Part shown: piece after piece, positions 1 through 18,073 of the stretch
Numbering within the stretch: position 1 is the first letter of the stretch
How the letters are laid out: each line of letters begins with the position of its first letter
Virus record (IMG/VR): IMGVR_UViG_2526164650_000010
Source: a virus
Lineage: Duplodnaviria > Heunggongvirae > Uroviricota > Caudoviricetes
Length of the DNA: 18,073 nt
Direction: 5' to 3' (one strand)
Program-made: the position numbers and the translations under genes
Notes under the pieces: model-generated
What the model saw: only the letters and a program-made list of their open reading frames with translations
Told to the model about the DNA's origin: nothing
The model's database searches: none

Positions 1-436
1 ATGAAGCGTGAAGAAATCGCTGATCTGATGGCGTTTGTCGTCGTTGCAGAGGAGCGTAGCTTCACTCGCGCAGCAGCCCGCCTGAGCATGGTGCAGTCAG
101 CTTTAAGCCAGATAGTGCGCCGTATAGAAGAACGATTGGGATTGCGGCTTCTGACGCGAACCACGCGCAGCGTTGTACCCACTGAAGCGGGCGAGCATCT
201 TTTGTCTGTTCTTGGCCCTATATTGCATGACATAGATTCTGCCCTGACATCCCTGAGCGATCTGCAGAACCGCCCATCCGGGACAATACGTATTACTACT
301 GTAGAACATGCAGCAAAAACGATATTGTTACCAGCCATGCGCACATTCCTGAAATCGCATCCTGAAATTGATATTCAGCTTACCATTGATTATGGTTTGA
401 CCGATGTCGTTTCTGAACGTTTTGATGCAGGCGTCC
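1..436 (+). pseudogene. LysR-family transcriptional regulator, N-terminal (HTH plus start of effector domain) fragment, truncated by IS600
   Basis: Translation begins with a LysR-type HTH (FTRAAARLSMVQSALSQIVRRIEERLG...); the reading frame runs into the IS600 terminal repeat at 437, so the 160-aa ORF 1..483 is a gene-IS fusion, not an intact protein. Confidence 0.8.
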
Positions 437-1698
437 TGAGGTGTACTGGCAATAGCGGATACTACCATTTGTTCTTTTTTTAAGCAGCCATCTGATGATA
501 TTTTTCCCTGAAGGCTGCCGGGGAGATATTCCCCAGACGAGAGTGACGACGCTGACGATTGTAGAAAATCTCAATGTATTCCCGTATTACTGAGATGGCT
601 TCATCCCGGTTATTAAAACGATAGTGGCTCAGGCTCTCATTTTTCAGCGTTCCCCAGAAGCTTTCCATCGGAGCGTTGTCGTAACAGTTACCTTTACGCG
701 ACATTGATGTTTTCAGACCAGACTGCTCCTGTATGACCCGGTAATCGTATGCGCAGTACTGTGAACCTCGATCAGAGTGGTGGATTAGCCCGGCAGGTGG
801 GCGCTGGCTCCTGAGCGCCATAAACAGGGCTTTACCTGTCAGCTCTTTTGTCATGCGCTCTCCCATGGCGTAGCCGACAATTTCGCACGTATAAACATCT
901 TTGATGCCAGCGAGGTACAACCATCCCTCCTGTGTGGCAACATACGTCAGGTCCGCCACCCAGACCTGATTTGGTGCTGTAGGAGCGAACGTCTGGTTCA
1001 GCAGATTTGGCGCAACTGGCAGATTGTGGTTCGGGTTCGTAGTCGCTCTGAACTTGCGTTTCTGCTTACAGCGTAGCCTCAGCTCCTTACGAAGACGTGC
1101 CAGTCGGTCACGACCAACGATGATGCCATTCTCTGCCAGCTCCGTCTGGAGCCGCCGGGTTCCATATGTTTCGCGAGTGCGGATATGTGCCACCTTAATC
1201 TCCAGTTTTAGCCGCTCATCACTTTGTTTTCTGTCTGAGGGTTCATGCTGTACCCAGTTGTAATAACCGCTCCTGGATACACCAAATACCTGACACATCG
1301 CTTCAATGGGAAATTGTTGTCGCCATTGTTCGATTAACGCGTATTTTTCAGCGACTCCTGTGCAAAATACGCTGTTGCTTTTTTTAATATATCGCTCAAG
1401 GCGAGCTTCATTTAACGCCTTACGCAGTTGCAGAATTTCAGATTCCAGTTCAGCCAGCGTGCGGGAACCAGGAGTACCGAGCCCTTTTCTGGCGGCGGTA
1501 ACCCATTGTCCTAAAGTGCCTTCAGGAAGGGATAATCGGGAAGCGCCTTCACTGATTGAAAGTTGATTTTCAAGAACCGTTCTGACAGCTTCGGCTTTGA
1601 ACTCTTTAGAGTAACGTTGGGTTTTTCTGCTCATTATTAGCTCCTTCTGATGCCATTCTATTTCAGGAAGGAGTGTCCGTTAAACTCAGGCTACCTCA
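437..1698 (-). mobile_element. IS600 (IS3 family) copy A, 1262 bp, ends TGAGGT...ACCTCA
   Basis: Near-identical to the second copy at 11228..12491 over its whole length; terminal inverted repeats TGAGGTAGCC.../...CCAGTACACCTCA; flanking triplets differ (no target-site duplication). Confidence 0.85.
480..1634 (-). CDS. IS600 transposase, orfA-orfB fused in frame (384 aa)
   Basis: Single ORF whose N-terminus matches the 100-aa orfA and C-terminus the 272-aa orfB of copy B; a 2-bp deletion just upstream of the A7G slippery run (compare 1386..1400 with 11526..11542) places orfB in the orfA frame. Confidence 0.85.
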   Translation of the reverse strand: MSRKTQRYSKEFKAEAVRTVLENQLSISEGASRLSLPEGTLGQWVTAARKGLGTPGSRTLAELESEILQLRKALNEARLERYIKKSNSVFCTGVAEKYALIEQWRQQFPIEAMCQVFGVSRSGYYNWVQHEPSDRKQSDERLKLEIKVAHIRTRETYGTRRLQTELAENGIIVGRDRLARLRKELRLRCKQKRKFRATTNPNHNLPVAPNLLNQTFAPTAPNQVWVADLTYVATQEGWLYLAGIKDVYTCEIVGYAMGERMTKELTGKALFMALRSQRPPAGLIHHSDRGSQYCAYDYRVIQEQSGLKTSMSRKGNCYDNAPMESFWGTLKNESLSHYRFNNRDEAISVIREYIEIFYNRQRRHSRLGNISPAAFREKYHQMAA

Positions 1699-1737
1699 CT
1701 TATTCTAAGCAACCGGGTAGCATCATACGGGGCAATT

Positions 1738-2150
1738 ATGGCCGCATTACCATACATGCAACTGTACATAGCTGATTACCTGGCTGACACCATGCATTTG
1801 TCAGCAGAGGAGCACGGCGCGTATTTGTTGCTGATGTTCAATTACTGGCAAACAGGAAAGCCAATACCCAAAAACAGGTTGGCAAAAATTGCCCGTCTGA
1901 CTAACGAGCGATGGGTTGATGTTGAACCATCCTTGCGGGAGTTTTTTTGTGATAACGGCGACGAATGGATGCATCTTCGGATTGAGGAAGATCTGGCATC
2001 TGTCAGAGAAAAATTAACCAAAAAATCAGCCGCAGGAAAAGCATCTGTTCAGGCCAGAAGAAGCAGAAAGGAAGCAGATGTTCAAACAAAACAAGAGAGA
2101 AATTTAACAGGTGTTCAAACAGATGTTGGAGTGGTGTTCGAACATGATGC
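1738..2150 (+). pseudogene. Phage replication protein (YdaU-like), 5' portion, interrupted by IS2
   Basis: ORF starting MAALPYMQLYIADYLADTMHLSAEEHGAYLLL...; the frame continues into IS2 at 2151 (track ORF 1738..2328 is a gene-IS fusion) and resumes in frame at 3487. Confidence 0.6.
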
Positions 2151-2161
2151 TGGATTTGCCC

Positions 2162-3067
2162 TTATATTTCCAGACATCTGTTATCACTTAACCCATTACA
2201 AGCCCGCTGCCGCAGATATTCCCGTGGCGAGCGATAACCCAGCGCACTATGCGGATGCCATTCGTTATAATGCTCGAACGCCTCTGCAAGGTTCTTTGCT
2301 GCCGTTAACCCGTCTGGTTTGGGCATGATACTGATGTAGTCACGCTTTATCGTTTTCACGAAGCTCTCTGCTATTCCGTTACTCTCCGGACTCCGCACCG
2401 CCGTGTTCTTCGGTTCAAGTCCCAACATCCGGGCGAACTGGCGTGTTTCATTAGCCCGGTAGCATGAACCATTATCCGTCAGCCACTCCACTGGAGACGA
2501 CGGAAGATCGTTGCCGAAGCGGCGTTCCACCGCTCCCAGCATGACGTCCTGTACTGTTTCACTGTTGAAGCCGCCGGTAGTCCCCGCCCAGTGCAGTGCC
2601 TCACGATCACAGCAGTCCAGCGCGAACGTGACACGCAGTCTCTCTCCGTTATCACAGCAGAACTCGAACCCGTCAGAGCACCATCGCTGATTGCTTTCTT
2701 TCACGGCCACTCTGCCTGTATGTGCCCGTTTCGATGGCGGTACAGCAGGTTTTCGCTCAAGCAACAGCGCATTCTGGCGCATGAGCCGGTAAACACGTTT
2801 GGCATTGATCGCAGGCATACCATCAAGTTCTGCCTGTCTGCGAAGCAGCGCCCATACCCGACGATAACCATACGTGGGCAGCTCTCCGATAACATGGTGT
2901 ATACGGAGAAGCACATCCGTATCATCAGTGTGACGACTGCGGCGGCCATCCATCCAGTCATCGGTTCGTCTGAGAATGACGTGCAACTGCGCACGCGACA
3001 CCCGGAGACAACGGCTGACTAAGCTTACTCCCCATCCCCGGGCAATAAGGGCGCGTGCGCTATCCAC
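2162..3067 (-). CDS. insD: IS2 transposase OrfB (InsD), 301 aa
   Basis: 301-aa ORF with DDE-type integrase core; overlaps upstream orfA as in IS3-family -1 frameshift arrangement. Confidence 0.9.
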
Positions 3068-3387
3068 TTTTTTGCCCGTCCATATTCAACGGCTTCTTTG
3101 AGGAGTTCATTTTCCATCGTTTTCTTGCCGAGCAGGCGCTGGAGTTCTTTAATCTGCTTCATGGCGGCAGCAAGTTCAGAGGCAGGAACAACCTGTTCTC
3201 CGGCGGCCACAGCAGTAAGACTTCCTTCCTGGTATTGCTTACGCCAGAGAAATAACTGGCTGGCTGCTACACCATGTTGCCGGGCAACGAGGGAGACCGT
3301 CATCCCCGGTTCAAAGCTCTGCTGAACAATTGCGATCTTTTCCTGTGTGGTACGCCGTCTGCGTTTCTCCGGCCCTAAGACATCAAT
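3025..3387 (-). CDS. insC: IS2 OrfA (InsC) HTH protein, about 121 aa
   Basis: Translation ...[43 protein letters not shown]...; the codon at the expected initiator position reads ATT here, and the open frame extends upstream to a GTG at 3435. Confidence 0.75.
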
Positions 3388-3486
3388 AATCTGTTCTCCA
3401 ATGACAAGTCTAAAAACTGGTATTAAGACTATCACTTAAATAAGTGATACTGGTTGTCTGGAGATTCAGGGGGCCAGTCTAGATGC

Positions 3487-4228: not shown

Positions 4229-4975
4229 ATGAAAAATATTGCGACAGGAGGCGTTCTGGAGCGTATCCGCAGACTGACCCCACCACATGTAACCGCCCCA
4301 TTCAGAACGGTTGCGGAGTGGCGCGAGTGGCAACTTGCTGAAGGCCAGAAACGTTGCGAGGAGATCAACCGCCTGAATCGTCAGTTGCGGGTGGAAAAAA
4401 TCCTGAACCGCTCCGGCATCCAGCCGTTGCACCGGAAGTGTTCGCTTGCGAATTACCGGGCGCAGAACGACGGTCAGCGACATGCACTGAGTCAGGCGAA
4501 ATCCATAGCTGACGAACTGATGACAGGCTGTACGAATTTTGTGTTCAGCGGTAAGCCCGGCACCGGAAAAAATCATCTTGCAGCCGCGATTGGCAACCGG
4601 CTGATGGCGAAGGGGCGTAGCGTGATTATCGTCACCGTGTCCGATGTCATGAGCGTGTTGCATGAGAGCTACGACAACGGCAAATCCGGTGAAAAATTTT
4701 TACAGGAGCTTTGTGGTGTTGACCTGCTGGTCCTGGATGAAATTGGCATGCAGCGGGATACGAAAAACGAGCAGGTGGTACTGAACCAGATTGTTGATCG
4801 CCGGACGGCATCGTTACGCGGTGTGGGGATGCTGACAAATATTAACCATGCAGCGATGAATACACTTCTCGGCGAGCGGGTGATGGATCGCATGGTCATG
4901 AACGGCGGGCGCTGGGTGAATTTTAACTGGGAGAGCTGGCGTCCGAATGTTAGCCATTCGAGGGTTGTTAAGTAG
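4229..4975 (+). CDS. DnaC-like replicative helicase loader (AAA+ ATPase, YdaV-like)
   Basis: 248 aa; Walker A GKPGTGKNHLAAAIG and Walker B LLVLDEIG motifs; RBS upstream; sits directly after the YdaU-like gene as in lambdoid O/P-type modules. Confidence 0.8.
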   Translation: MKNIATGGVLERIRRLTPPHVTAPFRTVAEWREWQLAEGQKRCEEINRLNRQLRVEKILNRSGIQPLHRKCSLANYRAQNDGQRHALSQAKSIADELMTGCTNFVFSGKPGTGKNHLAAAIGNRLMAKGRSVIIVTVSDVMSVLHESYDNGKSGEKFLQELCGVDLLVLDEIGMQRDTKNEQVVLNQIVDRRTASLRGVGMLTNINHAAMNTLLGERVMDRMVMNGGRWVNFNWESWRPNVSHSRVVK

Positions 4976-7166: not shown

Positions 7167-7531
7167 TGATTAATCGAACCAAACTGGAGCACATTCTCGA
7201 ATATGCCAGGCAGCAGAAATGTATTGGGCAACTTTGTAAAATTCCACCAGGAGATATGGTTGAAATCGTGGAAATGGCCATGCGTAAGGCTGGCAACTCT
7301 CCGGTAACTCTGGCTGGCTGGATAAGCTGTAGTGATGCAGTTCCTGCTGAATATTGCGATGTGATTCTTCTCGATGATCTCGGGAATGTATTCCCCGGTT
7401 CCTGGGATAAGGTTTTTTGCCCCACTCGTGGCGGGAATAAGATGGCTTTTGTGGACAAAGACGGCGTTGAAGTAGAGAGCTCAACTCACTGGATGCCGCT
7501 ACCGGAACCACCGCAGGAGGTGAATCAATGA
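7166..7531 (+). CDS. Hypothetical phage protein, DUF551-like C-terminus (HWMPLPEPP)
   Basis: 121-aa ORF; the C-terminal W-x-PLP-x-PP motif is recalled from prophage DUF551 proteins; stop overlaps next start (ATGA). Confidence 0.55.
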   Translation: MINRTKLEHILEYARQQKCIGQLCKIPPGDMVEIVEMAMRKAGNSPVTLAGWISCSDAVPAEYCDVILLDDLGNVFPGSWDKVFCPTRGGNKMAFVDKDGVEVESSTHWMPLPEPPQEVNQ

Positions 7532-7611
7532 CCTGGCCTGAGGCATTCACCACGGTAGGAATTGCGATGGCGGTGGCGCTGGTGGTGTATTCGATTTGCC
7601 GTTGGGGTTAA
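7528..7611 (+). CDS. Small hydrophobic peptide (27 aa, single predicted TM helix)
   Basis: MTWPEAFTTVGIAMAVALVVYSICRWG; ATGA overlap with the upstream gene suggests translational coupling; immediately followed by a strong terminator. Confidence 0.4.
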   Translation: MTWPEAFTTVGIAMAVALVVYSICRWG

Positions 7612-7620
7612 CAAACAAAA

Positions 7621-7647
7621 ACCCCGGATTGATGGTCCGGGGTTTTT
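7621..7647. terminator. Rho-independent terminator (8-bp GC-rich stem plus T-run), probably bidirectional
   Basis: ACCCCGGA-ttgatgg-TCCGGGGT followed by TTTTT; A-run on the 5' side gives a U-run on the opposite strand. Confidence 0.7.
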
Positions 7648-7869
7648 GAAGGAAACAAAACAGAAACAGCAATTGCCGTTACCTGTTGTTACCATGGCAA
7701 GTAAACGTATCTCAGGCGAGCGCATTGCGCCGTTCTGACGCAGATAAATTAGCCTGGATAGAAGGTGCTGGCAATAAAAAATAGCGTTTTCTTATCGGTA
7801 TCGGTAAGATTGCTGCGGGTGCTTGAGGCTGTCTGCCTCGGGCATGCCACTGTAAGGCAGACAGAGAAA

Positions 7870-7940
7870 AGCCCCAGTTAACATTACGCGTCCTGCAAGA
7901 CGCTTAACATTAATCTGAGGCCCAATCTATGTCTCACAAA
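7870..7940 (-). ncRNA. Candidate Sok-like antisense RNA overlapping the mok start
   Basis: Minus-strand TTGCCT-17nt-TAACCT (7972..7944) would start transcription near 7937, antisense to the mok initiation region; a minus-strand hairpin GCGTC-ttgcag-GACGC lies downstream. Weak promoter match; hypothesis only. Confidence 0.2.
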
Positions 7941-8141
7941 TGTAGGTTAGCCTCTTACGTGCCGAAAGGCAAGGAGAAGCAGGCTATGAAGCAGCAAAAG
8001 GCGATGTTAATCGCCCTGATCGTCATCTGTTTAACCGTCATAGTGACGGCACTGGTAACGAGGAAAGACCTCTGCGAGGTACGAATCCGAACCGGCCAGA
8101 CGGAGGTCGCTGTCTTCACAGCTTACGAACCTGAGGAGTAA
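7929..8141 (+). CDS. mok-like reading frame (in-frame N-terminal extension of hok, 70 aa)
   Basis: ATG at 7929 opens a frame that contains the whole Hok peptide, as in chromosomal mok/hok loci. Confidence 0.45.
   Translation: MSHKCRLASYVPKGKEKQAMKQQKAMLIALIVICLTVIVTALVTRKDLCEVRIRTGQTEVAVFTAYEPEE
7986..8141 (+). CDS. hokD: Hok/Gef-family membrane toxin, HokD (RelF)-like, 51 aa
   Basis: MKQQKAMLIALIVICLTVIVTALVTRKDLCEVRIRTGQTEVAVFTAYEPEE: hydrophobic TM segment followed by the conserved TRKxLCE motif of Hok proteins. Confidence 0.85.
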   Translation: MKQQKAMLIALIVICLTVIVTALVTRKDLCEVRIRTGQTEVAVFTAYEPEE

Positions 8142-8210
8142 GAGACCAGGCGGGGGAGAAATCCCTCGCCACCTCTCATGTGTCAGGCATCCTCAACGCA
8201 CCCGCACTAA

Positions 8211-8231
8211 ACCCGCTTCGGCGGGTTTTTT
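8211..8231 (+). terminator. Rho-independent terminator downstream of hok
   Basis: ACCCGC-ttcg-GCGGGT hairpin followed by TTTTTT. Confidence 0.7.
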
Positions 8232-8376
8232 GTTGCGTGCTGAATACGCAGGGTGAAAAATAACCATATATTTGATTATATACACAACAAAAATAAAAGT
8301 CATTGTACTTGCACATTAAACAATCAAATATACGGCGTGAAATAAATATTTATCAGATTAATATTTTTGTCTCTAT

Positions 8377-8628
8377 GTGGATATAACCGTTTGTACTTAT
8401 AAACCTGGGGGCATCGTGGAAAAAATAAAGAAACTATTTAGTAGCAAATACGCAGTCATACGTCGTGATGACCTGTCAGTTATAGTCGAAATGGATTACT
8501 TCCCTGAAACCCCAAAATCAATAATGTATCGTAATGGTCGAAAGGCAATTTTTTTACCGATGAGGGTAAGTGACATTATGGGAAATGATAAACTGCTGGA
8601 TGAATTGCGAGTCAGAGCATCCTGTTAG
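8377..8628 (+). CDS. Small phage protein, Rem-like (83 aa)
   Basis: 83-aa ORF directly downstream of hok, as rem is in the K-12 Qin prophage (from memory); GTG start in this frame; its stop codon TAG lies inside the left IS1 target duplication. Confidence 0.55.
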   Translation: MDITVCTYKPGGIVEKIKKLFSSKYAVIRRDDLSVIVEMDYFPETPKSIMYRNGRKAIFLPMRVSDIMGNDKLLDELRVRASC

Positions 8629-10904: not shown

Positions 10905-10930
10905 CTCAATCTGTTATCCGGGGCTATATT
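10901..10930 (+). promoter_or_regulatory. Sigma70 promoter, PR'-like late promoter candidate
   Basis: TTGACT (10901..10906) - 18 nt - TATATT (10925..10930), overlapping the stop codon of the Q-like gene. Confidence 0.4.
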
Positions 10931-10992
10931 CCTCACGCGCCAGCAAAATCTGGCGTCGGGATTGGCGTCCCGGATGTTTACGGAGCGATATG

Positions 10993-11013
10993 AGACGCGC
11001 CCGCGTCTTTTTT
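10993..11013 (+). terminator. Rho-independent terminator, tR'-like
   Basis: AGACGC-gccc-GCGTCT followed by a T-run, about 60-80 nt downstream of the candidate PR'. Confidence 0.6.
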
Positions 11014-11176
11014 CATATCGTTTGCACAGTCACATTCGCGATTTATGGCGGGCTGTGTGGGGGAGCCGAAAGGCTCGCCGGTTTCCGTACCCGGTTACGC
11101 CAACCCTGCACAGTTCGCCACCAGTTCGATTGGCGTCGTCGGTGGCGATAATTTCCAAATGTACGGAGTTATCGTT

Positions 11177-11291: not shown

Positions 11292-11594
11292 ATGAGCAGA
11301 AAAACCCAACGTTACTCTAAAGAGTTCAAAGCCGAAGCTGTCAGAACGGTTCTTGAAAATCAACTTTCGATCAGTGAAGGCGCTTCCCGATTATCCCTTC
11401 CTGAAGGCACTTTAGGACAATGGGTTACCGCCGCCAGAAAAGGGCTCGGTACTCCTGGTTCCCGCACGGTGGCTGAACTGGAATCTGAAATTCTGCAACT
11501 GCGTAAGGCGTTAAATGAAGCTCGCCTTGAGCGAGATATATTAAAAAAAGCAACAGCGTATTTTGCACAGGAGTCGCTGAAAAATACGCGTTAA
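11292..11594 (+). CDS. IS600 OrfA (HTH protein, 100 aa)
   Basis: MSRKTQRYSKEFKAEAVRTVLENQLSISEGASRLSLPEGTLGQWV... with leucine-zipper-like C-terminus. Confidence 0.9.
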   Translation: MSRKTQRYSKEFKAEAVRTVLENQLSISEGASRLSLPEGTLGQWVTAARKGLGTPGSRTVAELESEILQLRKALNEARLERDILKKATAYFAQESLKNTR

Positions 11595-11629
11595 TCGAAC
11601 AATGGCGACAACAATTTCCCATTGAAGCG

Positions 11630-12448
11630 ATGTGTCAGGTATTTGGTGTATCCAGGAGCGGTTATTACAACTGGGTACAGCATGAACCCTCAGACAGAAA
11701 ACAAAGTGATGAGCGGCTAAAACTGGAGATTAAGGTGGCACATATCCGCACTCGCGAAACATATGGAACCCGGCGGCTCCAGACGGAGCTGGCAGAGAAT
11801 GGCATCATCGTTGGTCGTGACCGACTGGCACGTCTTCGTAAGGAGCTGAGGCTACGCTGTAAGCAGAAACGCAAGTTCAGAGCGACTACGAACCCGAACC
11901 ACAATCTGCCAGTTGCGCCAAATCTGCTGAACCAGACGTTCGCTCCTACAGCACCAAATCAGGTCTGGGTGGCGGACCTGACGTATGTTGCCACACAGGA
12001 GGGATGGTTGTACCTCGCTGGCATCAAAGATGTTTATACGTGTGAAATTGTCGGCTACGCCATGGGAGAGCGCATGACAAAAGAGCTGACAGGTAAAGCC
12101 CTGTTTATGGCGCTCAGGAGCCAGCGCCCACCTGCCGGGCTAATCCACCACTCTGATCGAGGTTCACAGTACTGCGCATACGATTACCGGGTCATACAGG
12201 AGCAGTCTGGTCTGAAAACATCAATGTCGCGTAAAGGTAACTGTTACGACAACGCTCCGATGGAAAGCTTCTGGGGAACGCTGAAAAATGAGAGCCTGAG
12301 CCACTATCGTTTTAATAACCGGGATGAAGCCATCTCAGTAATACGGGAATACATTGAGATTTTCTACAATCGTCAGCGTCGTCACTCTCGTCTGGGGAAT
12401 ATCTCCCCGGCAGCCTTCAGGGAAAAATATCATCAGATGGCTGCTTAA
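11630..12448 (+). CDS. IS600 OrfB (DDE transposase catalytic domain, 272 aa from ATG)
   Basis: The -1 frame relative to orfA is open from 11531; DDE-type motifs (WVADLTY..., HSDRGSQY..., NCYDNAPMESFWGTLK). Confidence 0.85.
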   Translation: MCQVFGVSRSGYYNWVQHEPSDRKQSDERLKLEIKVAHIRTRETYGTRRLQTELAENGIIVGRDRLARLRKELRLRCKQKRKFRATTNPNHNLPVAPNLLNQTFAPTAPNQVWVADLTYVATQEGWLYLAGIKDVYTCEIVGYAMGERMTKELTGKALFMALRSQRPPAGLIHHSDRGSQYCAYDYRVIQEQSGLKTSMSRKGNCYDNAPMESFWGTLKNESLSHYRFNNRDEAISVIREYIEIFYNRQRRHSRLGNISPAAFREKYHQMAA

Positions 12449-12494
12449 AAAAAGAACAAATGGTAGTGTCCGCTATTGCCAGTACACCTCACAG

Positions 12495-13001
12495 ATTCCT
12501 GTTATTACCACCGAACTTTTGGCGCAGCTTTACGGCACTGAGCCGGTGCGTATTCGCCAGAATCATCATGAGAACAAAGTACGCTTCGTTGAAGGGAAAC
12601 ACTTTTTCAAAGTTGTTGGTAATGACCTTAAAGAATTGCGGGTCGCTTTAAACTACTCACAAAATCCAGTTTCACCCAAAGCCCGCTCCCTCATCCTCTG
12701 GACAGAACGAGGCGCAGCACGCCACGGCAAAATGCTCGAAACCGATCAGGCGTGGGATGTGTTCGAAAAACTGGAAGACTGCTATTTCAGTCAAAGGGAT
12801 CCGTCAACGCCAGTTTCATGCCAGAAAAGTTACGACACGCGAGTTCTCTGTTATCAGAGAGGCGGTGTCACTGTTTCCACAATTCAGTTACGGGATGATG
12901 ATATTGTTATTTCCCTTGAGTCATGGCTGGAACTGGCGAGAGCCAATGGTTGGTTTGTTGTTCGCAGAGATAAACTGGTGGAAAGGTTGATGCAGCTTTA
13001 A
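12495..13001 (+). pseudogene. Phage antirepressor-like gene, 3' portion (169 codons)
   Basis: In frame with 11177..11227 after removing IS600 and one CAG copy; the track ORF 12354..13001 begins inside the IS. Confidence 0.5.
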
Positions 13002-13209: not shown

Positions 13210-13286
13210 GGCCCTTTAGCTCAGTTGGTCAGAGCGAGCGACTCATAATCGCCAGGTCGCTGGTTCAAGTCCAGCAAGGGCCACCA
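13210..13286 (+). tRNA. tRNA with CAU anticodon, most like tRNA-Ile2 (lysidine type); tRNA-Met not excluded
   Basis: Hand-folded cloverleaf: acceptor GGCCCTT/AAGGGCC, anticodon loop CTCATAA, T-arm GCTGG-TTCAAGT-CCAGC, 3' CCA encoded; the anticodon stem-loop and T-arm match my recollection of E. coli ileX. Confidence 0.75.
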
Positions 13287-13287
13287 A

Positions 13288-13364
13288 CCACCACTAGCTC
13301 ATCCGGATAGAGCATCAACCTTCTAAGTTGACGGTGCGAGGTTCGAGTCCTCGGTGGTGGGCCA
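13288..13364 (+). tRNA. tRNA-Arg (anticodon UCU)
   Basis: Acceptor CCACCAC/GTGGTGG (unusual 5' C), D-arm GCTC...GAGC, anticodon stem TCAAC/GTTGA with loop CTTCTAA, T-loop TTCGAGT, CCA encoded; 1-nt spacer from the previous tRNA. Confidence 0.75.
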
Positions 13365-13366
13365 GC

Positions 13367-13442
<76 letters not shown>

Positions 13443-13445
13443 TAT

Positions 13446-13520
<75 letters not shown>

Positions 13521-13634: not shown

Positions 13635-15239
13635 ATGATTCAGCTATCCAGTAGTCACAAACTTCCAGCAGTCTACTATCTCTACCAGCGTAACGGCGTC
13701 TACTACTTCCGTCTTAGGGTCAGACAATCAAACAATGATAGAATGACCTCAATATCATTACGGACCAAGGATAGACGCACCGCTATGGCTTACTCAAGGC
13801 ACATAAAGGCAGCACTCAAGGCAATACACGCAGACAGACCCAACGCTACCTATGAGGAAATGAGGGAACACCTTAAGGACATCGCTGAGTGTGAACTGTC
13901 TATGGGCCGTTCAGATCTCTTTGAGCCTGACATGAGGGATATCTACCGGGACCAATACGGAGAACTTGGTGAGAGCCTTACCGATGCTCTGGCTAGTGAG
14001 CCGCTAAGCATTGACCAGCATCGTTACATCAATGAGGCCCTGAAGGTGCTAAAAGCCTGTATGAGGCGTATCGAAGCGGGAGACAGTCAGCTTCTGATAG
14101 ATTACGTCGATCTTTTTAATGATATTGATAGGCAAGATAACCAAGCAGACTCTGTGTCCCTATCTGTTAATGCTCCAGAAGTAAAACCAGAAGTTACGCC
14201 TAGCATTACCATAGCGAGCCTCTTTGAGCAATACGAAGCGGAGAACTATCAGAACTGGAAGCCTGCAACCTTAAGGGAAAACAAGGCGTCACACGCTGCG
14301 TTAATCGAAATATTCGACCATCTGGGTCTCAATGCAGACGCTAACAGGGCTGACATGCTTAGGGTCCGTGATGTGCTCCAGCAGTTACCTAGGAACCGTA
14401 AGCAGCGCTTCAAGGATGTCCCACTTGCTGACCTGTTGAGCCGTGAAGATAAGACAGATTGTCTGGATGTCGTTACCATCAACAACAAGTATCTTATTAA
14501 GATGGCTGCTGTCTTTAGGTGGGCTGTGCGCAATGACTTGATTAAAAAGAACATGACTGAGGGTCTGGAGCTTAAAGTCCCTCAGCGTAAAGCCTCAGGG
14601 GCCCGTAACGCCTTCTCTACGGAGCAGGTGGGGCAACTACTGGTCGCAGCTAAGGCATACTCTCAGAAGACCTCTGGTAAGCCGTATCATTATTATGTTA
14701 CCGCCTTGGCTGCTATCACTGGGGCGAGACTCAATGAAATAGCCCAACTACAGGTCAAAGACGTCAGGACCACTGAGGCGGGAACCGTTTATATTCATAT
14801 CAATGAAGACGATAGTAGTCTACCCGGTAAGAGCATCAAGAACGCTCATAGTGACCGCTGTGTGCCTCTGGTCGATGGGGCCTATGGTTTTATATTGGCT
14901 GACTTTATGGCGCTTGTAGAGACCCGTAGAGGCGCTGACGGTGATGACGCTATGGTGTTCGATGGTCTGCGTCTCATGAAGAACGGTTACGGTGAGCAGG
15001 TGAGTAAATGGTTTAATCGGACGTTGTTGCCTAAAGTCCTCGTAGACCGTAGCGGCTTAGCGTTTCACTCGTTTAGACATACAGTTGCGGCCCAGTTAAA
15101 ACAACATGGGGTCGAGTTGGCGTATGCACAGGCGATCATGGGGCATAGTTCAGGGTCTATTACGTACGACCGTTATGCTAAAGAGGTCGAGGTTGATAGG
15201 CTGGTCAATGTGATGGCTGATGTTTATAAGGAGACCTAG
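13635..15239 (+). CDS. Tyrosine site-specific recombinase (phage-type integrase), 534 aa
   Basis: C-terminal catalytic signature: R (TGARLNEIAQL), H-x-x-R (HSFRHTVA), H and Y nucleophile (MGHSSGSITYDRYAK); N-terminal arm-type start (YQRNGVYYFRLRV); begins 114 bp after tRNA-Gly. Confidence 0.9.
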   Translation: MIQLSSSHKLPAVYYLYQRNGVYYFRLRVRQSNNDRMTSISLRTKDRRTAMAYSRHIKAALKAIHADRPNATYEEMREHLKDIAECELSMGRSDLFEPDMRDIYRDQYGELGESLTDALASEPLSIDQHRYINEALKVLKACMRRIEAGDSQLLIDYVDLFNDIDRQDNQADSVSLSVNAPEVKPEVTPSITIASLFEQYEAENYQNWKPATLRENKASHAALIEIFDHLGLNADANRADMLRVRDVLQQLPRNRKQRFKDVPLADLLSREDKTDCLDVVTINNKYLIKMAAVFRWAVRNDLIKKNMTEGLELKVPQRKASGARNAFSTEQVGQLLVAAKAYSQKTSGKPYHYYVTALAAITGARLNEIAQLQVKDVRTTEAGTVYIHINEDDSSLPGKSIKNAHSDRCVPLVDGAYGFILADFMALVETRRGADGDDAMVFDGLRLMKNGYGEQVSKWFNRTLLPKVLVDRSGLAFHSFRHTVAAQLKQHGVELAYAQAIMGHSSGSITYDRYAKEVEVDRLVNVMADVYKET

Positions 15240-17375: not shown

Positions 17376-17651
17376 GTGGCTTCCATTTCCATCAGATGTC
17401 CTTCCTGCTCCGCTACTGAAGGCGTGGTGCGTAACGGCAAAAGCACTGCCGGACATCAGCGCTATCTCTGCTCTCATTGCCGTAAAACATGGCAACTACA
17501 GTTCACTTACACCGCCTCTCAGCCCGGTACGCACCAGAAAATCATTGATATGGCCATGAATGGCGTCGGATGTCGTGCCAGTGCACGCATTATGGGCGTT
17601 GGCCTCAACACGGTTTTACGTCACTTAAAAAACTCAGGCCGCAGTCGGTAA
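17376..17651 (+). CDS. insA: IS1 InsA (91 aa)
   Basis: Identical protein to copy A InsA. Confidence 0.9.
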
Positions 17652-18073
17652 CCTCGCGCATACAACCGGGCAGTGATGTGATTGTCTGCGCTGAAATGGA
17701 CGAACATTGGGGCTACGTCGGTGCTAAATCACGTCAGCGCTGGCTGTTTTACGCGTATGACAGGATACGGAGGACGGTTGTGGCGCACGTCTTCGGTGAA
17801 CGCACTCTGGCCACACTGGAGCGTCTTCTGAGCCTGCTGTCGGCCTTTGAGGTCGTGGTATGGATGACGGATGGCTGTCCGCTGTATGAATCACGCCTGA
17901 AGGGAAAGCTGCACGTTATCAGCAAGCGTTACACTCAGCGCATTGAGCGACATAATCTGAATCTGAGACAACATCTGGCAAGGCTGGTACGGAAGTCACT
18001 GTCGTTCTCAAAATCGGTGGAGCTGCATGACAAGGTCATCGGGCATTATCTGAACATAAAACACTATCAGTAA
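17570..18073 (+). CDS. insB: IS1 InsB (167 aa), intact frame
   Basis: Continuous frame through the region deleted in copy A; stop codon is the last triplet of the window. Confidence 0.85.

What the first reader, a model, noticed from the sequence alone, without database searches (positions are those of the whole stretch)
7870..8231. hok/mok-type toxin locus with candidate antisense (sok-like) promoter
A 51-aa Hok-family toxin ORF is embedded in a 70-aa in-frame upstream frame (mok-like) and followed by a strong terminator. On the opposite strand a TTGCCT-17nt-TAACCT element would start an RNA antisense to the mok start, the geometry expected for a Sok-like regulator. A long inverted repeat CTGTCTGCCT...AGGCAGACAG at 7838..7862 sits in the leader. 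Unlike K-12 hokD, which follows relBE, this copy follows replication-module genes.
Basis: partly seen in the sequence, partly recalled or inferred. Interest (0 to 1): 0.45.

Follow-up and report, generated by a model that had tools for sequence, protein, structure and literature searches.

The report
Intact hok/mok/sok toxin-antitoxin locus
This is an ordinary, complete copy of the well-known hok/sok RNA-controlled toxin-antitoxin module (HokD/HokW type), sitting in a decayed lambda-like prophage; near-identical copies occur in most E. coli genomes and one close relative has already been tested experimentally.

Summary
Window 7805..8231 holds a complete hok/mok/sok type I toxin-antitoxin locus. 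It has a 51-aa Hok toxin identical to K-12 HokD, an in-frame 70-aa mok leader frame, a terminator, and a 71-nt antisense Sok RNA (minus strand, 7937..7867). The Sok promoter (TTGCCT-17-TAACCT) is base-for-base identical to the sokW promoter of Stx phage 933W/Sp5, whose -10 box was mutated in a published functional test. By consensus alone that promoter cannot be told from chance; only homology validates it. The 5' end (tac, 7817-7828) pairs with an fbi element (8191-8203), and the leader inverted repeat lies at 7829-7838/7855-7864, not 7838..7862. Folding reproduces the closed full-length and open truncated mRNA states described for R1, and a 41-locus alignment from several genera shows compensatory changes in these helices. 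Matches occur in 4,722 of 5,426 complete E. coli genomes. K-12 hokD is a 5'-truncated derivative whose homology begins inside the sok -35 box. Verdict: real, correctly interpreted, already known, low interest.

The parts
7805..7810 (+). Inferred hok/mok mRNA promoter -10 box (TAAGAT). There is no good -35 box.
   Evidence: It aligns with TAGAAT in 933W and TATGAT in an R1-type locus, 6 nt upstream of the conserved mRNA 5' end. Inferred, not mapped; the sigma-70 scan did not call it.
7817..8231 (+). Full-length hok (mok-hok) mRNA, about 415 nt.
   Evidence: The Rfam RF01794 match starts at 7817. The terminator lies at 8209-8228 and the T-run ends at 8231. Fold z-score -7.25. The structure is 82.7% paired across 41 loci, against 38-46% when the 3' partners are slid.
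7817..7828 (+). tac (translational activator) element at the mRNA 5' end.
   Evidence: It pairs with 8191-8203 in the full-length minimum-energy fold and with the ucb in the truncated fold. One pair covaries: U-A in 25 loci, C-G in 12. A perfect 9-nt complement links 7814-7822 and 8198-8206.
7829..7864 (+).
   Evidence: Compensatory changes: G-C here, A-U in 933W, U-A in the R1 type (helix 2).
7868..7875 (+). ucb (upstream complementary box, the anti-SD of mok).
   Evidence: 7871-7875 pairs with the mok SD (7917-7921) in the full-length fold and with tac in the truncated fold. Helix 3 covaries: A-U 27 / G-C 14, and G-C 22 / A-U 16.
7867..7937 (-). Sok antisense RNA, 71 nt: a 14-nt single-stranded 5' tail plus a long terminator hairpin and a U-tail.
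   Evidence: These are the coordinates of the annotated 933W sokW transferred to the window. Fold -29.2 kcal/mol, z-score -5.27. 64 of 71 nt are identical to SokW.
7944..7972 (-). sok promoter: -35 TTGCCT (7972..7967), 17-nt spacer, -10 TAACCT (7949..7944).
   Evidence: Identical to the 933W promoter, whose -10 box was mutated in the published promoter-less construct (PMC8621323). TTG in the -35 box and TAnnCT in the -10 box hold their positions in most of the 41 loci. Not significant as a consensus match.
7917..7920 (+). mok Shine-Dalgarno sequence (GAGG).
   Evidence: Invariant in all 41 loci. It lies 8 nt upstream of ATG 7929.
7929..8141 (+). mok reading frame, 70 aa, in frame with hok.
   Evidence: Same layout as the annotated mokW. 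The mok-to-hok start distance is 57 nt here; other loci have 58 or 56.
7933..7936 (+). YUNR (CUCA) motif in the loop at the mok start, a candidate U-turn for Sok recognition.
   Evidence: present here, and in 26 of 40 loci against 31% of random windows.
7950..7954 (+). dcb (downstream complementary box, GCCUC). It pairs with the mok SD in the open conformation.
   Evidence: The Rfam consensus structure pairs GAGGC with GCCUC, and the window satisfies it (alignment). GCCTCTT is invariant. My own truncated minimum-energy fold did not reproduce this pairing.
7986..8141 (+). hok toxin gene, 51 aa; SD GGAG at 7973-7976.
   Evidence: Pfam HOK_GEF E=1.2e-23. Identical to K-12 HokD.
8124..8127 (+). 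TACG at codon Tyr47, the TadA A-to-I editing motif (Tyr to Cys recoding).
   Evidence: TTACGAA is invariant in 41 of 41 loci. Editing of hokD-type mRNAs is described in bioRxiv 10.1101/2025.08.07.668861. Not tested here.
8149..8170 (+). 3'-UTR hairpin, the presumed road-block for 3' exonucleolytic trimming.
   Evidence: helices 15-16, 81-96% paired. The role is inferred from R1 (PMC1635323 figure legend; PMC9841398).
8191..8203 (+). fbi (fold-back inhibition) element.
   Evidence: It pairs with tac and covaries with it.
8209..8231 (+). Intrinsic terminator of the hok mRNA.
   Evidence: 8-bp stem with 5 G-C pairs, a 4-nt loop and a T-run. Also, repeat I4.

Best explanation
Window 7805..8231 is a complete hok/mok/sok type I toxin-antitoxin module of the HokD/HokW subgroup, carried in the accessory (nin-like) region of a defective Rac-type lambdoid prophage.

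The mechanism below is inferred from the R1 and hokW-sokW systems. All the required sequence elements were shown here to be present.
1. A weak promoter makes a stable mRNA of about 415 nt (7817..8231).
2. In the full-length form, the 5' tac pairs with the 3' fbi, and the ucb sequesters the mok Shine-Dalgarno sequence. Neither mok nor hok is translated, and Sok cannot bind.
3. Slow 3' trimming removes the terminator and the fbi.
4. tac then pairs with the ucb, the mok SD shifts to the dcb, and the mok start loop is exposed.
5. While the DNA is present, a 71-nt unstable antisense Sok RNA (minus strand, 7937..7867) is made from TTGCCT-17-TAACCT.
6. Sok binds the mok initiation region through its 14-nt single-stranded 5' tail. 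This blocks mok translation and, with it, the coupled hok translation. The duplex is cleaved by RNase III.
7. If Sok supply stops, the stored mRNA is translated and the 51-aa Hok peptide damages the inner membrane.
8. TadA editing of Tyr47 (TAC followed by G) to Cys probably modulates toxicity.

The most likely biological role in this decayed, IS-riddled prophage is as a selfish stabilising (addiction) element, or simply as a surviving remnant of one.
For: Shown here:
- Rfam sok/hok-leader model, 118 bits against a gathering score of 59, E=8e-27.
- Pfam HOK_GEF, E=1.2e-23.
- Toxin identical to K-12 HokD and 47/51 identical to HokW.
- Locus about 93% identical to the 933W mokW/hokW/sokW locus, with every annotated feature mapping in register.
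- sok promoter identical to the 933W promoter.
- tac/fbi and ucb/SD pairing in the full-length fold, and the switch to tac/ucb in the truncated fold.
- Sok folds as a 5' tail plus a terminator hairpin.
- Across 41 loci from Escherichia, Shigella, Kluyvera, Photorhabdus, Pantoea, Citrobacter and an R1-type plasmid, the structure is 82.7% paired against 38-46% when slid, and 47 pairs change on both sides.

From the literature:
- HokW is toxic; sokW RNA is detected by Northern blot and is protective; a promoter mutation abolishes protection; RNase III and Hfq contribute (PMC8621323).
- The tac/fbi/ucb/dcb model for R1 (PMC9841398; PMC1635323).
- The HokD peptide is toxic on overexpression (bioRxiv 10.1101/2025.08.07.668861).
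Against: - No expression data exist for this copy.
- The sok promoter is a poor consensus match and was not called by the scan.
- The hok promoter and the transcription start are inferred only. The tac/fbi complement extends 3 nt upstream of the presumed +1.
- My truncated fold did not reproduce the SD/dcb pairing; the truncation point was arbitrary.
- Chromosomal hokA, hokB and hokC loci failed to give post-segregational killing in earlier work (cited in the bioRxiv survey). Structural intactness therefore does not prove activity.
Confidence: 0.93

Rival explanations
1. The locus is structurally intact but functionally silent. It is transcribed and regulated yet unable to kill at single copy, like the chromosomal hokA/B/C loci, so it is a neutral passenger and not an active addiction module.
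For: [quoted passage not shown] Tyr47 must be edited to Cys for the disulfide thought to be needed for full toxicity. The host prophage is heavily decayed.
Against: All regulatory elements are intact and under visible structural constraint, shown by compensatory changes. The near-identical hokW-sokW works at single copy in a prophage (PMC8621323). The HokD peptide is toxic. Degenerate copies do exist and look different: L007 has a mutated tac, and L008 and K-12 lack the leader.
Confidence: 0.25
2. Its role is that shown for hokW-sokW in Sp5. On prophage induction Sok disappears, Hok is made, and early membrane damage speeds lysis and phage release.
For: PMC8621323. The locus is about 93% identical to hokW-sokW. 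In the window hok points the same way as the replication-to-Q early genes, so antiterminated read-through could interfere with the convergent sok promoter (my inference).
Against: In this window the prophage looks defective. An IS element splits ydaU, no immunity region lies to the left (truncated LysR gene plus an IS), and an integrase-family gene follows the tRNAs where a relative has a holin. The genomic position also differs from 933W, where the locus lies next to attR.
Confidence: 0.12
3. There is no antisense regulator here: the promoter-like hexamers are a chance match and the toxin ORF is controlled by mRNA folding alone.
For: The hexamers match the sigma-70 consensus at only 7 of 12 positions. 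The scan did not call the site, and equally good sites occur about as often as in shuffled sequence.
Against: The sequence is identical to a promoter validated by mutagenesis, whose RNA product was detected. TTG and TAnnCT hold their positions across genera. The downstream minus-strand sequence folds into a hairpin terminator with z=-5.3.
Confidence: 0.02

Closest known systems
hokW/mokW/sokW of Stx2 phage 933W / Sakai prophage Sp5 (AF125520; PMC8621323)
   Same: Same subgroup. About 93% DNA identity over 400 nt. In-frame 70-aa mok, 51-aa toxin (47/51 identical), 71-nt Sok, identical sok promoter, and the same tac, ucb, dcb and fbi elements.
   Different: Six of the first 20 nt of Sok (and so Mok residues 2-4) differ, and there are 4 substitutions at the toxin C-terminus. 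Genomic position differs: 933W carries the locus next to attR, while here it lies between the replication/accessory genes and the Q-antiterminator module. 933W also lacks the window's terminator sequence beyond the fbi.
hokD (relF) of the E. coli K-12 Qin prophage
   Same: Identical toxin coding sequence, hok SD, 3' UTR, fbi and terminator.
   Different: K-12 hokD shares homology only from about 7973 onward; the breakpoint lies inside or next to the sok -35 box. Its upstream side is relE (71-nt gap), so it lacks tac, ucb, the mok start, the sok -10 box and Sok. The window carries the intact ancestral-type locus.
hok/sok (parB) of plasmid R1, the paradigm
   Same: Same element order and spacing, the same two-state mRNA architecture and the same position of the sok promoter (TTGCGC-17-TATCCT in an R1-type copy). 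Matches the same Rfam model.
   Different: The toxin is only 22/51 identical. The Sok hairpin here is longer, with about 19 extra nt at its tip relative to the Rfam consensus, giving 71 nt against 64 nt. mok is in frame here; published R1 numbering gives a 58-nt offset, which is out of frame (PMC9841398). The carrier is a chromosomal prophage, not a plasmid.
mok/hok of 'phage Rac' from E. coli 442/2 (MN652886) and temperate phages mEp460, Tritos, HannyBb
   Same: Same genomic niche: ydaV - ydaW - small ORFs - mok/hok - DUF1367 - ybcO - Q. 92-95% DNA identity.
   Different: The Rac 442/2 copy has a 58-nt mok offset (out of frame, 68 aa) and the promoter TTGACC / TAATCT.

Membership tests
[quoted passage not shown] | Small (~50 aa) hydrophobic Hok/Gef-family toxin ORF. 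| tested here: met
   Pfam PF01848, E=1.2e-23, 82.9 bits against a cut-off of 22. Identical to K-12 HokD.
[quoted passage not shown] | Overlapping mok leader frame with its own SD, starting about 57 nt upstream of hok. | tested here: met
   ATG 7929, with GAGG 8 nt upstream; 57 nt to the hok ATG. The same position holds in 40 of 41 loci.
[quoted passage not shown] | Conserved hok mRNA leader structure (tac stem, Sok-terminator complement, SD/dcb stem). | tested here: met
   Rfam RF01794, 118.1 bits against a gathering score of 59, full-length match 1-157.
[quoted passage not shown] | Long-range 5'-3' tac/fbi pairing that closes the full-length mRNA. | tested here: met
   12 pairs, 7817-7828 with 8191-8203, in the minimum-energy fold. 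A perfect 9-nt inverted repeat 375 nt apart. 88.6% paired across 41 loci with U-A/C-G covariation.
[quoted passage not shown] | Alternative pairing: ucb sequesters the mok SD in the full-length form; tac/ucb and SD/dcb form after 3' trimming. | tested here: met
   ucb/SD in the full-length fold. tac/ucb in the truncated fold. SD/dcb is satisfied in the Rfam consensus alignment but did not appear in my truncated minimum-energy fold.
[quoted passage not shown] | Cis-encoded antisense Sok gene: a promoter inside the 5' part of mok, and a ~65-70-nt RNA with a single-stranded 5' tail and a terminator hairpin complementary to the mok initiation region. | tested here: met
   The promoter is identical to the validated sokW promoter. 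The fold shows a 14-nt tail plus a hairpin. Sequence-level test only.
[quoted passage not shown] | YUNR U-turn motif in the Sok-target loop. | tested here: met
   CUCA at 7933-7936. The motif is enriched in the family but not universal: 26 of 40 loci against 31% by chance. The criterion was recalled from Franch et al. 1999, which is listed in the references of PMC1635323.
[quoted passage not shown] | Sok RNA is actually expressed and unstable; the hok mRNA is stable and 3'-processed. | not testable with these tools
   Needs Northern blot, rifampicin chase or RNA-seq. Shown for the close relative sokW (PMC8621323).
[quoted passage not shown] | The toxin kills or arrests cells, and Sok neutralises it. 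| not testable with these tools
   Shown for HokW/sokW. HokD peptide toxicity is reported in the bioRxiv survey. Not tested for this copy.

The most novel reading that the evidence does not exclude
The segment that sets Sok-hok recognition (Sok's 5' tail and the mok-start loop, 7922-7937) diverges about ten times faster than the toxin gene among close relatives: 36% against 3%. It also differs between copies co-resident in one genome. This could reflect selection for mutually orthogonal Sok specificities, so that each prophage's addiction module is enforced on its own and cannot be rescued by another copy's Sok. The neutral alternative is that this loop and Mok codons 2-4 are simply unconstrained, and the evidence here does not rule that out.
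Probability: 0.2. Interest if true: 0.35.

Novelty: already known. Interest (0 to 1): 0.08.

Why it matters
It matters little beyond correct annotation. Automated pipelines label this locus only 'hokD' or 'Hok/Gef family protein' and leave out mok, Sok and the RNA elements. This copy is the complete regulated module, unlike the truncated K-12 hokD. That is useful to know when interpreting prophage stability, RNA-seq antisense signals, or the toxicity of cloned fragments from this region. The locus could also serve as a clean natural example of the intact HokD-type system for comparison with K-12.

Tried and rejected
- The sigma-70 consensus scan over 7600-8450 did not call either the sok or the hok promoter. 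A custom count showed the sok hexamers are no better than chance. I therefore rejected sequence-consensus evidence for the promoter and relied on homology.
- Folding a 3'-truncated mRNA (7817-8186) reproduced the tac/ucb switch but not the SD/dcb pairing. Instead the SD paired with the arbitrary new 3' end. This is inconclusive, and the truncation point is not mapped.
- I tested whether the 83-aa ORF 8377-8628 is the rem gene that follows hokD in K-12. There was no similarity.
- The whole-window search found no complete E. coli genome covering more than 51% of the window. The source strain was not identified; E. coli ECMA0423 and Shigella flexneri SFBU1023 carry an identical hok locus (L006 and its duplicate L011).
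- YUNR as a universal family feature is only partly supported.
- I considered whether the + strand Rfam 'sok' hit meant Sok is on the + strand. Rejected: the model ends at the hok AUG and contains the mok SD, so it is built in the hok-mRNA sense.
- Two literature or tool queries failed on syntax and were re-run.

Full report
**What is there**

- A 51-aa ORF lies at 7986..8141.
- A 70-aa frame starts at ATG 7929, in frame with that ORF and sharing its stop codon.
- A G+C-rich hairpin lies at 8209-8228, followed by a T-run.
- On the minus strand, TTGCCT (7972..7967) and TAACCT (7949..7944) are separated by 17 nt.

The 51-aa product matches Pfam HOK_GEF at E=1.2e-23. Its coding sequence is identical to K-12 hokD.

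Two coordinates need correcting.
- The leader inverted repeat CTGTCTGCCT/AGGCAGACAG lies at 7829-7838 / 7855-7864. It is part of a longer imperfect repeat, 7818-7838 / 7855-7875.
- The unit begins well upstream of 7870. The Rfam model RF01794 matches 7817..7991 over its full length, at 118 bits against a gathering score of 59.

That model is built in the sense of the hok mRNA leader. It contains the mok SD and ends at the hok AUG. Its + strand hit therefore marks the hok leader, not the Sok RNA itself.

**Is it more than chance?**

The ORF, the leader and the folds clearly are.
- The 416-nt + strand transcript folds at -176 kcal/mol, against -130 +/- 6 for shuffles (z = -7.25).
- The 71-nt minus-strand RNA folds at -29.2 kcal/mol, against -15.1 +/- 2.7 (z = -5.3).

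The promoter, taken alone, is not. TAACCT matches TATAAT at only 3 of 6 positions, and the scan did not call the site. Ten sites in the window are at least as good, against a mean of 16.6 in shuffled sequence. Its credibility comes only from homology.

**Homology to characterised loci**

The 511-nt region matches 79 phage records. One is phage 933W (AF125520), where the locus is annotated mokW, hokW and sokW. With an offset of 4930, the 933W features map onto the window as follows.
- mokW starts at 7929.
- hokW starts at 7986.
- sokW covers 7867..7937 on the minus strand.

The + strand stretch 7940..7990, which contains both sok promoter hexamers, is identical in the window and 933W.

Takada et al. 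2021 (PMC8621323) tested the same locus in prophage Sp5.
- HokW arrests growth.
- sokW RNA is seen on Northern blots and protects against HokW.
- A promoter-less construct loses that protection. It was made with primers YO-421/422, which change TAGGTTAG to CCGGCTCG, that is, the TAACCT hexamer.

The locus is also extremely common. It matches in 4,722 of 5,426 complete E. coli genomes, and 3,794 genomes have a copy covering at least 80% of the query, leader included. The median is two copies per genome that has any.

**RNA anatomy**

I tested the R1 model of regulation (PMC9841398; PMC1635323) on this copy.
- **Full-length fold:** nucleotides 7817-7828 (tac) pair with 8191-8203 (fbi). GCC at 7871-7873 (ucb) pairs with GGC at 7919-7921, part of the mok SD. 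`repeat finder` independently reports a perfect 9-nt complement between 7814-7822 and 8198-8206.
- **Truncated fold:** removing the 3' end (7817-8186) makes tac pair with the ucb instead.
- **SD/dcb stem:** this stem of the open form (GAGGC 7917-7921 with GCCUC 7950-7954) is part of the Rfam consensus structure, and the window satisfies it. My arbitrary truncation did not reproduce it.
- **Sok:** it folds as a 14-nt single-stranded 5' tail covering mok codons 1-3, followed by a 55-nt hairpin and a U-tail. This matches the anatomy described for R1 Sok.
- **YUNR motif:** CUCA lies in the mok-start loop at 7933-7936. The motif occurs in 26 of 40 relatives, against 31% of random windows.

**Comparative support**

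A protein-seeded scan of one genome per species returned 53 loci. The tac motif GCTTGAGGC lies 137-166 nt upstream of hok in nearly all of them.

I aligned 41 full transcripts: the window, 933W, Rac-442/2, an R1-type plasmid copy, and 37 genome loci from Escherichia, Shigella, Kluyvera, Photorhabdus, Pantoea, Citrobacter and others. I then projected the window's full-length structure onto that alignment.
- 82.7% of cells are paired, against 38-46% when the 3' partners are slid by 1-3 columns.
- 47 pairs show changes on both sides.
- The covariation score is 0.167, against 0.056-0.084 for the slid versions.
- In tac/fbi, one pair is U-A in 25 loci and C-G in 12.
- In ucb/SD, one pair is A-U 27 / G-C 14 and another is G-C 22 / A-U 16.

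One caveat applies. The structure came from the window's own sequence, which favours it on the percentage paired. The changes on both sides do not depend on that choice.

The sok promoter keeps TTG in the -35 box and TAnnCT in the -10 box in most loci.

**Context**

Pfam and a homologous annotated region give the following layout.
- a truncated LysR-type gene (1-483)
- an IS3-family element (480-1634, minus strand)
- ydaU (DUF1376), split by a second IS3-family element (2162-3435)
- a DnaC-like ydaV homologue (4229-4975)
- DUF977, a zinc-ribbon ORF, DUF4014, an HNH protein, a 221-aa ORF and DUF551 (ending at 7531)
- a hairpin terminator (7616-7648)
- hok/sok
- an 83-aa ORF
- DUF1367, YbcO and a Q-like DUF1133 antiterminator
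- isrK and C4 RNAs
- a third IS3-family element
- an ORF6N protein
- four tRNAs
- an integrase-family gene
- IS1

This is a decayed Rac-type lambdoid prophage. The same niche (ydaV ... mok/hok ... ybcO - Q) is seen in 'phage Rac' from E. coli 442/2.

There hokD lies 71 nt downstream of relE. Homology to the window begins only at about 7973, within or next to the sok -35 box. K-12 hokD is therefore a 5'-truncated derivative lacking tac, ucb, the mok start and Sok.

**Mechanism and role**

The regulatory mechanism given in the best explanation is inferred from R1 and hokW-sokW. What I showed here is that every sequence element it needs is present, intact and evolutionarily constrained.

The biological role is less certain.
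- **Addiction or stabilisation** of the element is the default reading.
- **Lysis assistance**, as shown for Sp5, is unlikely to apply now, because this prophage appears defective.
- **Silence:** earlier reports that chromosomal hok loci do not mediate post-segregational killing keep a 'silent but intact' reading alive.
- **An untested idea:** hok points the same way as the early replication-to-Q genes. Antiterminated read-through on induction could occlude the convergent sok promoter. That might explain the induction-linked loss of sokW, which Takada et al. left unexplained. It is my inference only.

**Novelty**

There is none at the level of the system. The family, this subgroup, its prophage location (hok enrichment in prophages: bioRxiv 10.1101/2025.08.07.668861), the antisense RNA and even this exact promoter are already described.

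The only mildly new observation is that the Sok 5' tail / mok-start segment diverges 36% among close relatives, against 3% for the toxin gene. It also differs between co-resident copies. This may reflect selection for distinct specificities, or simply relaxed constraint.

Noticed in passing
window 10924-11125: Rfam hits to c4-a1b1 targets (10924-10976), isrK (10937-11013) and C4 antisense RNA (11041-11125), immediately downstream of the Q-like DUF1133 gene. This is a P1/P7-type C4 or Gifsy-type isrK antirepressor-control module. It is followed by an IS3-family insertion (11292-12448) and an ORF6N gene (12354-13001).
   Followed up: no
window 13210-13520 and 13635-15239: A cluster of four tRNAs: Met(CAT), which the homologous RefSeq region annotates as Ile, then Arg(TCT), Thr(TGT) and Gly(TCC). 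It is followed by a 534-aa phage-integrase-family ORF where a close relative (L003) has a holin. This suggests a second element integrated here, or replacement of the lysis module.
   Followed up: partly
window 1-3435, 11292-12448, 17570-18073: Heavy IS load: a truncated LysR-type gene at 1-483, an IS3-family element at 480-1634 (minus strand), an IS3-family element at 2162-3435 (minus strand) splitting ydaU, an IS3-family element at 11292-12448, and IS1 from 17570. The prophage is defective. An IS density this high is typical of Shigella-like genomes, and Shigella flexneri SFBU1023 carries an identical hok locus (L011, a duplicate of L006).
   Followed up: partly
window 8124-8127: The Tyr47 codon TAC followed by G forms the TadA A-to-I editing motif (Tyr to Cys recoding). 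TTACGAA is invariant in all 41 aligned hok loci, which means conservation at the nucleotide level. The literature describes editing of hokB/C/D/E.
   Followed up: partly
window 7922-7937; A2 columns ~128-150: The Sok 5' tail / mok-start segment is the fastest-diverging part of the locus among close relatives: 36% differing, against 3% for the hok coding sequence and 4% for the Sok hairpin. Copies co-resident in one genome (L006, L007 and L014 of E. coli ECMA0423) differ there.
   Followed up: partly
A2 alignment (41 loci): The mok frame is not conserved. The mok-to-hok start distance is 57 nt (in frame, Mok being an N-terminally extended Hok) in most loci, including the window, 933W and an R1-type copy. 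It is 58 nt in ten loci and 56 nt, giving a 19-aa Mok, in two. One Kluyvera locus (L032) has no ATG at that position.
   Followed up: yes
window 7817-7991 (Rfam RF01794): The Rfam family named 'sok antitoxin' is modelled on the hok-mRNA sense strand. Its consensus contains the mok SD and ends at the hok AUG. Its hits therefore mark the hok leader, and the real Sok lies on the opposite strand.
   Followed up: yes
H1 (PP818812.1); L019, L024, L057: Taxonomic labels that look wrong. 'Actinobacillus phage vB_Apl-pPE4' carries this locus at 97% identity. Very short contigs labelled Acinetobacter idrijaensis (275 bp) and Xanthomonas pisi (431 bp), and a 'Candidatus Scatousia' MAG contig, encode HokD-type sequence. 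Contamination or mislabelling is the likely cause.
   Followed up: no
window 8240-8628: An A+T-rich intergenic region (8240-8376) has two promoter-like sites on the minus strand, one matching 10 of 12 positions (ATGACT-17-TATAAT, 8303..8275). It is followed by an 83-aa ORF (8377-8628) with no Pfam hit. The ORF has the same length and position as K-12 rem but no detectable similarity to it.
   Followed up: partly
window 7616-7648: A 13-bp G+C-rich hairpin flanked by A-runs and T-runs, the shape of a bidirectional terminator. It lies between the DUF551 gene and the hok promoter region, and the scan called it on the minus strand. It may insulate hok/sok from upstream early transcription.
   Followed up: no
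window 7814-7816 / 8204-8206: The perfect tac/fbi complementarity extends 3 nt upstream of the presumed transcription start at 7817. Either the real start lies slightly upstream or the extension is coincidental. The start site is not mapped.
   Followed up: no
L007, L008, L045: Degenerate relatives for comparison. L007 has a mutated tac (GACTGCATGTGGC). L008 and L045 lack the leader motif altogether; L008 may be of the K-12 hokD type.
   Followed up: partly
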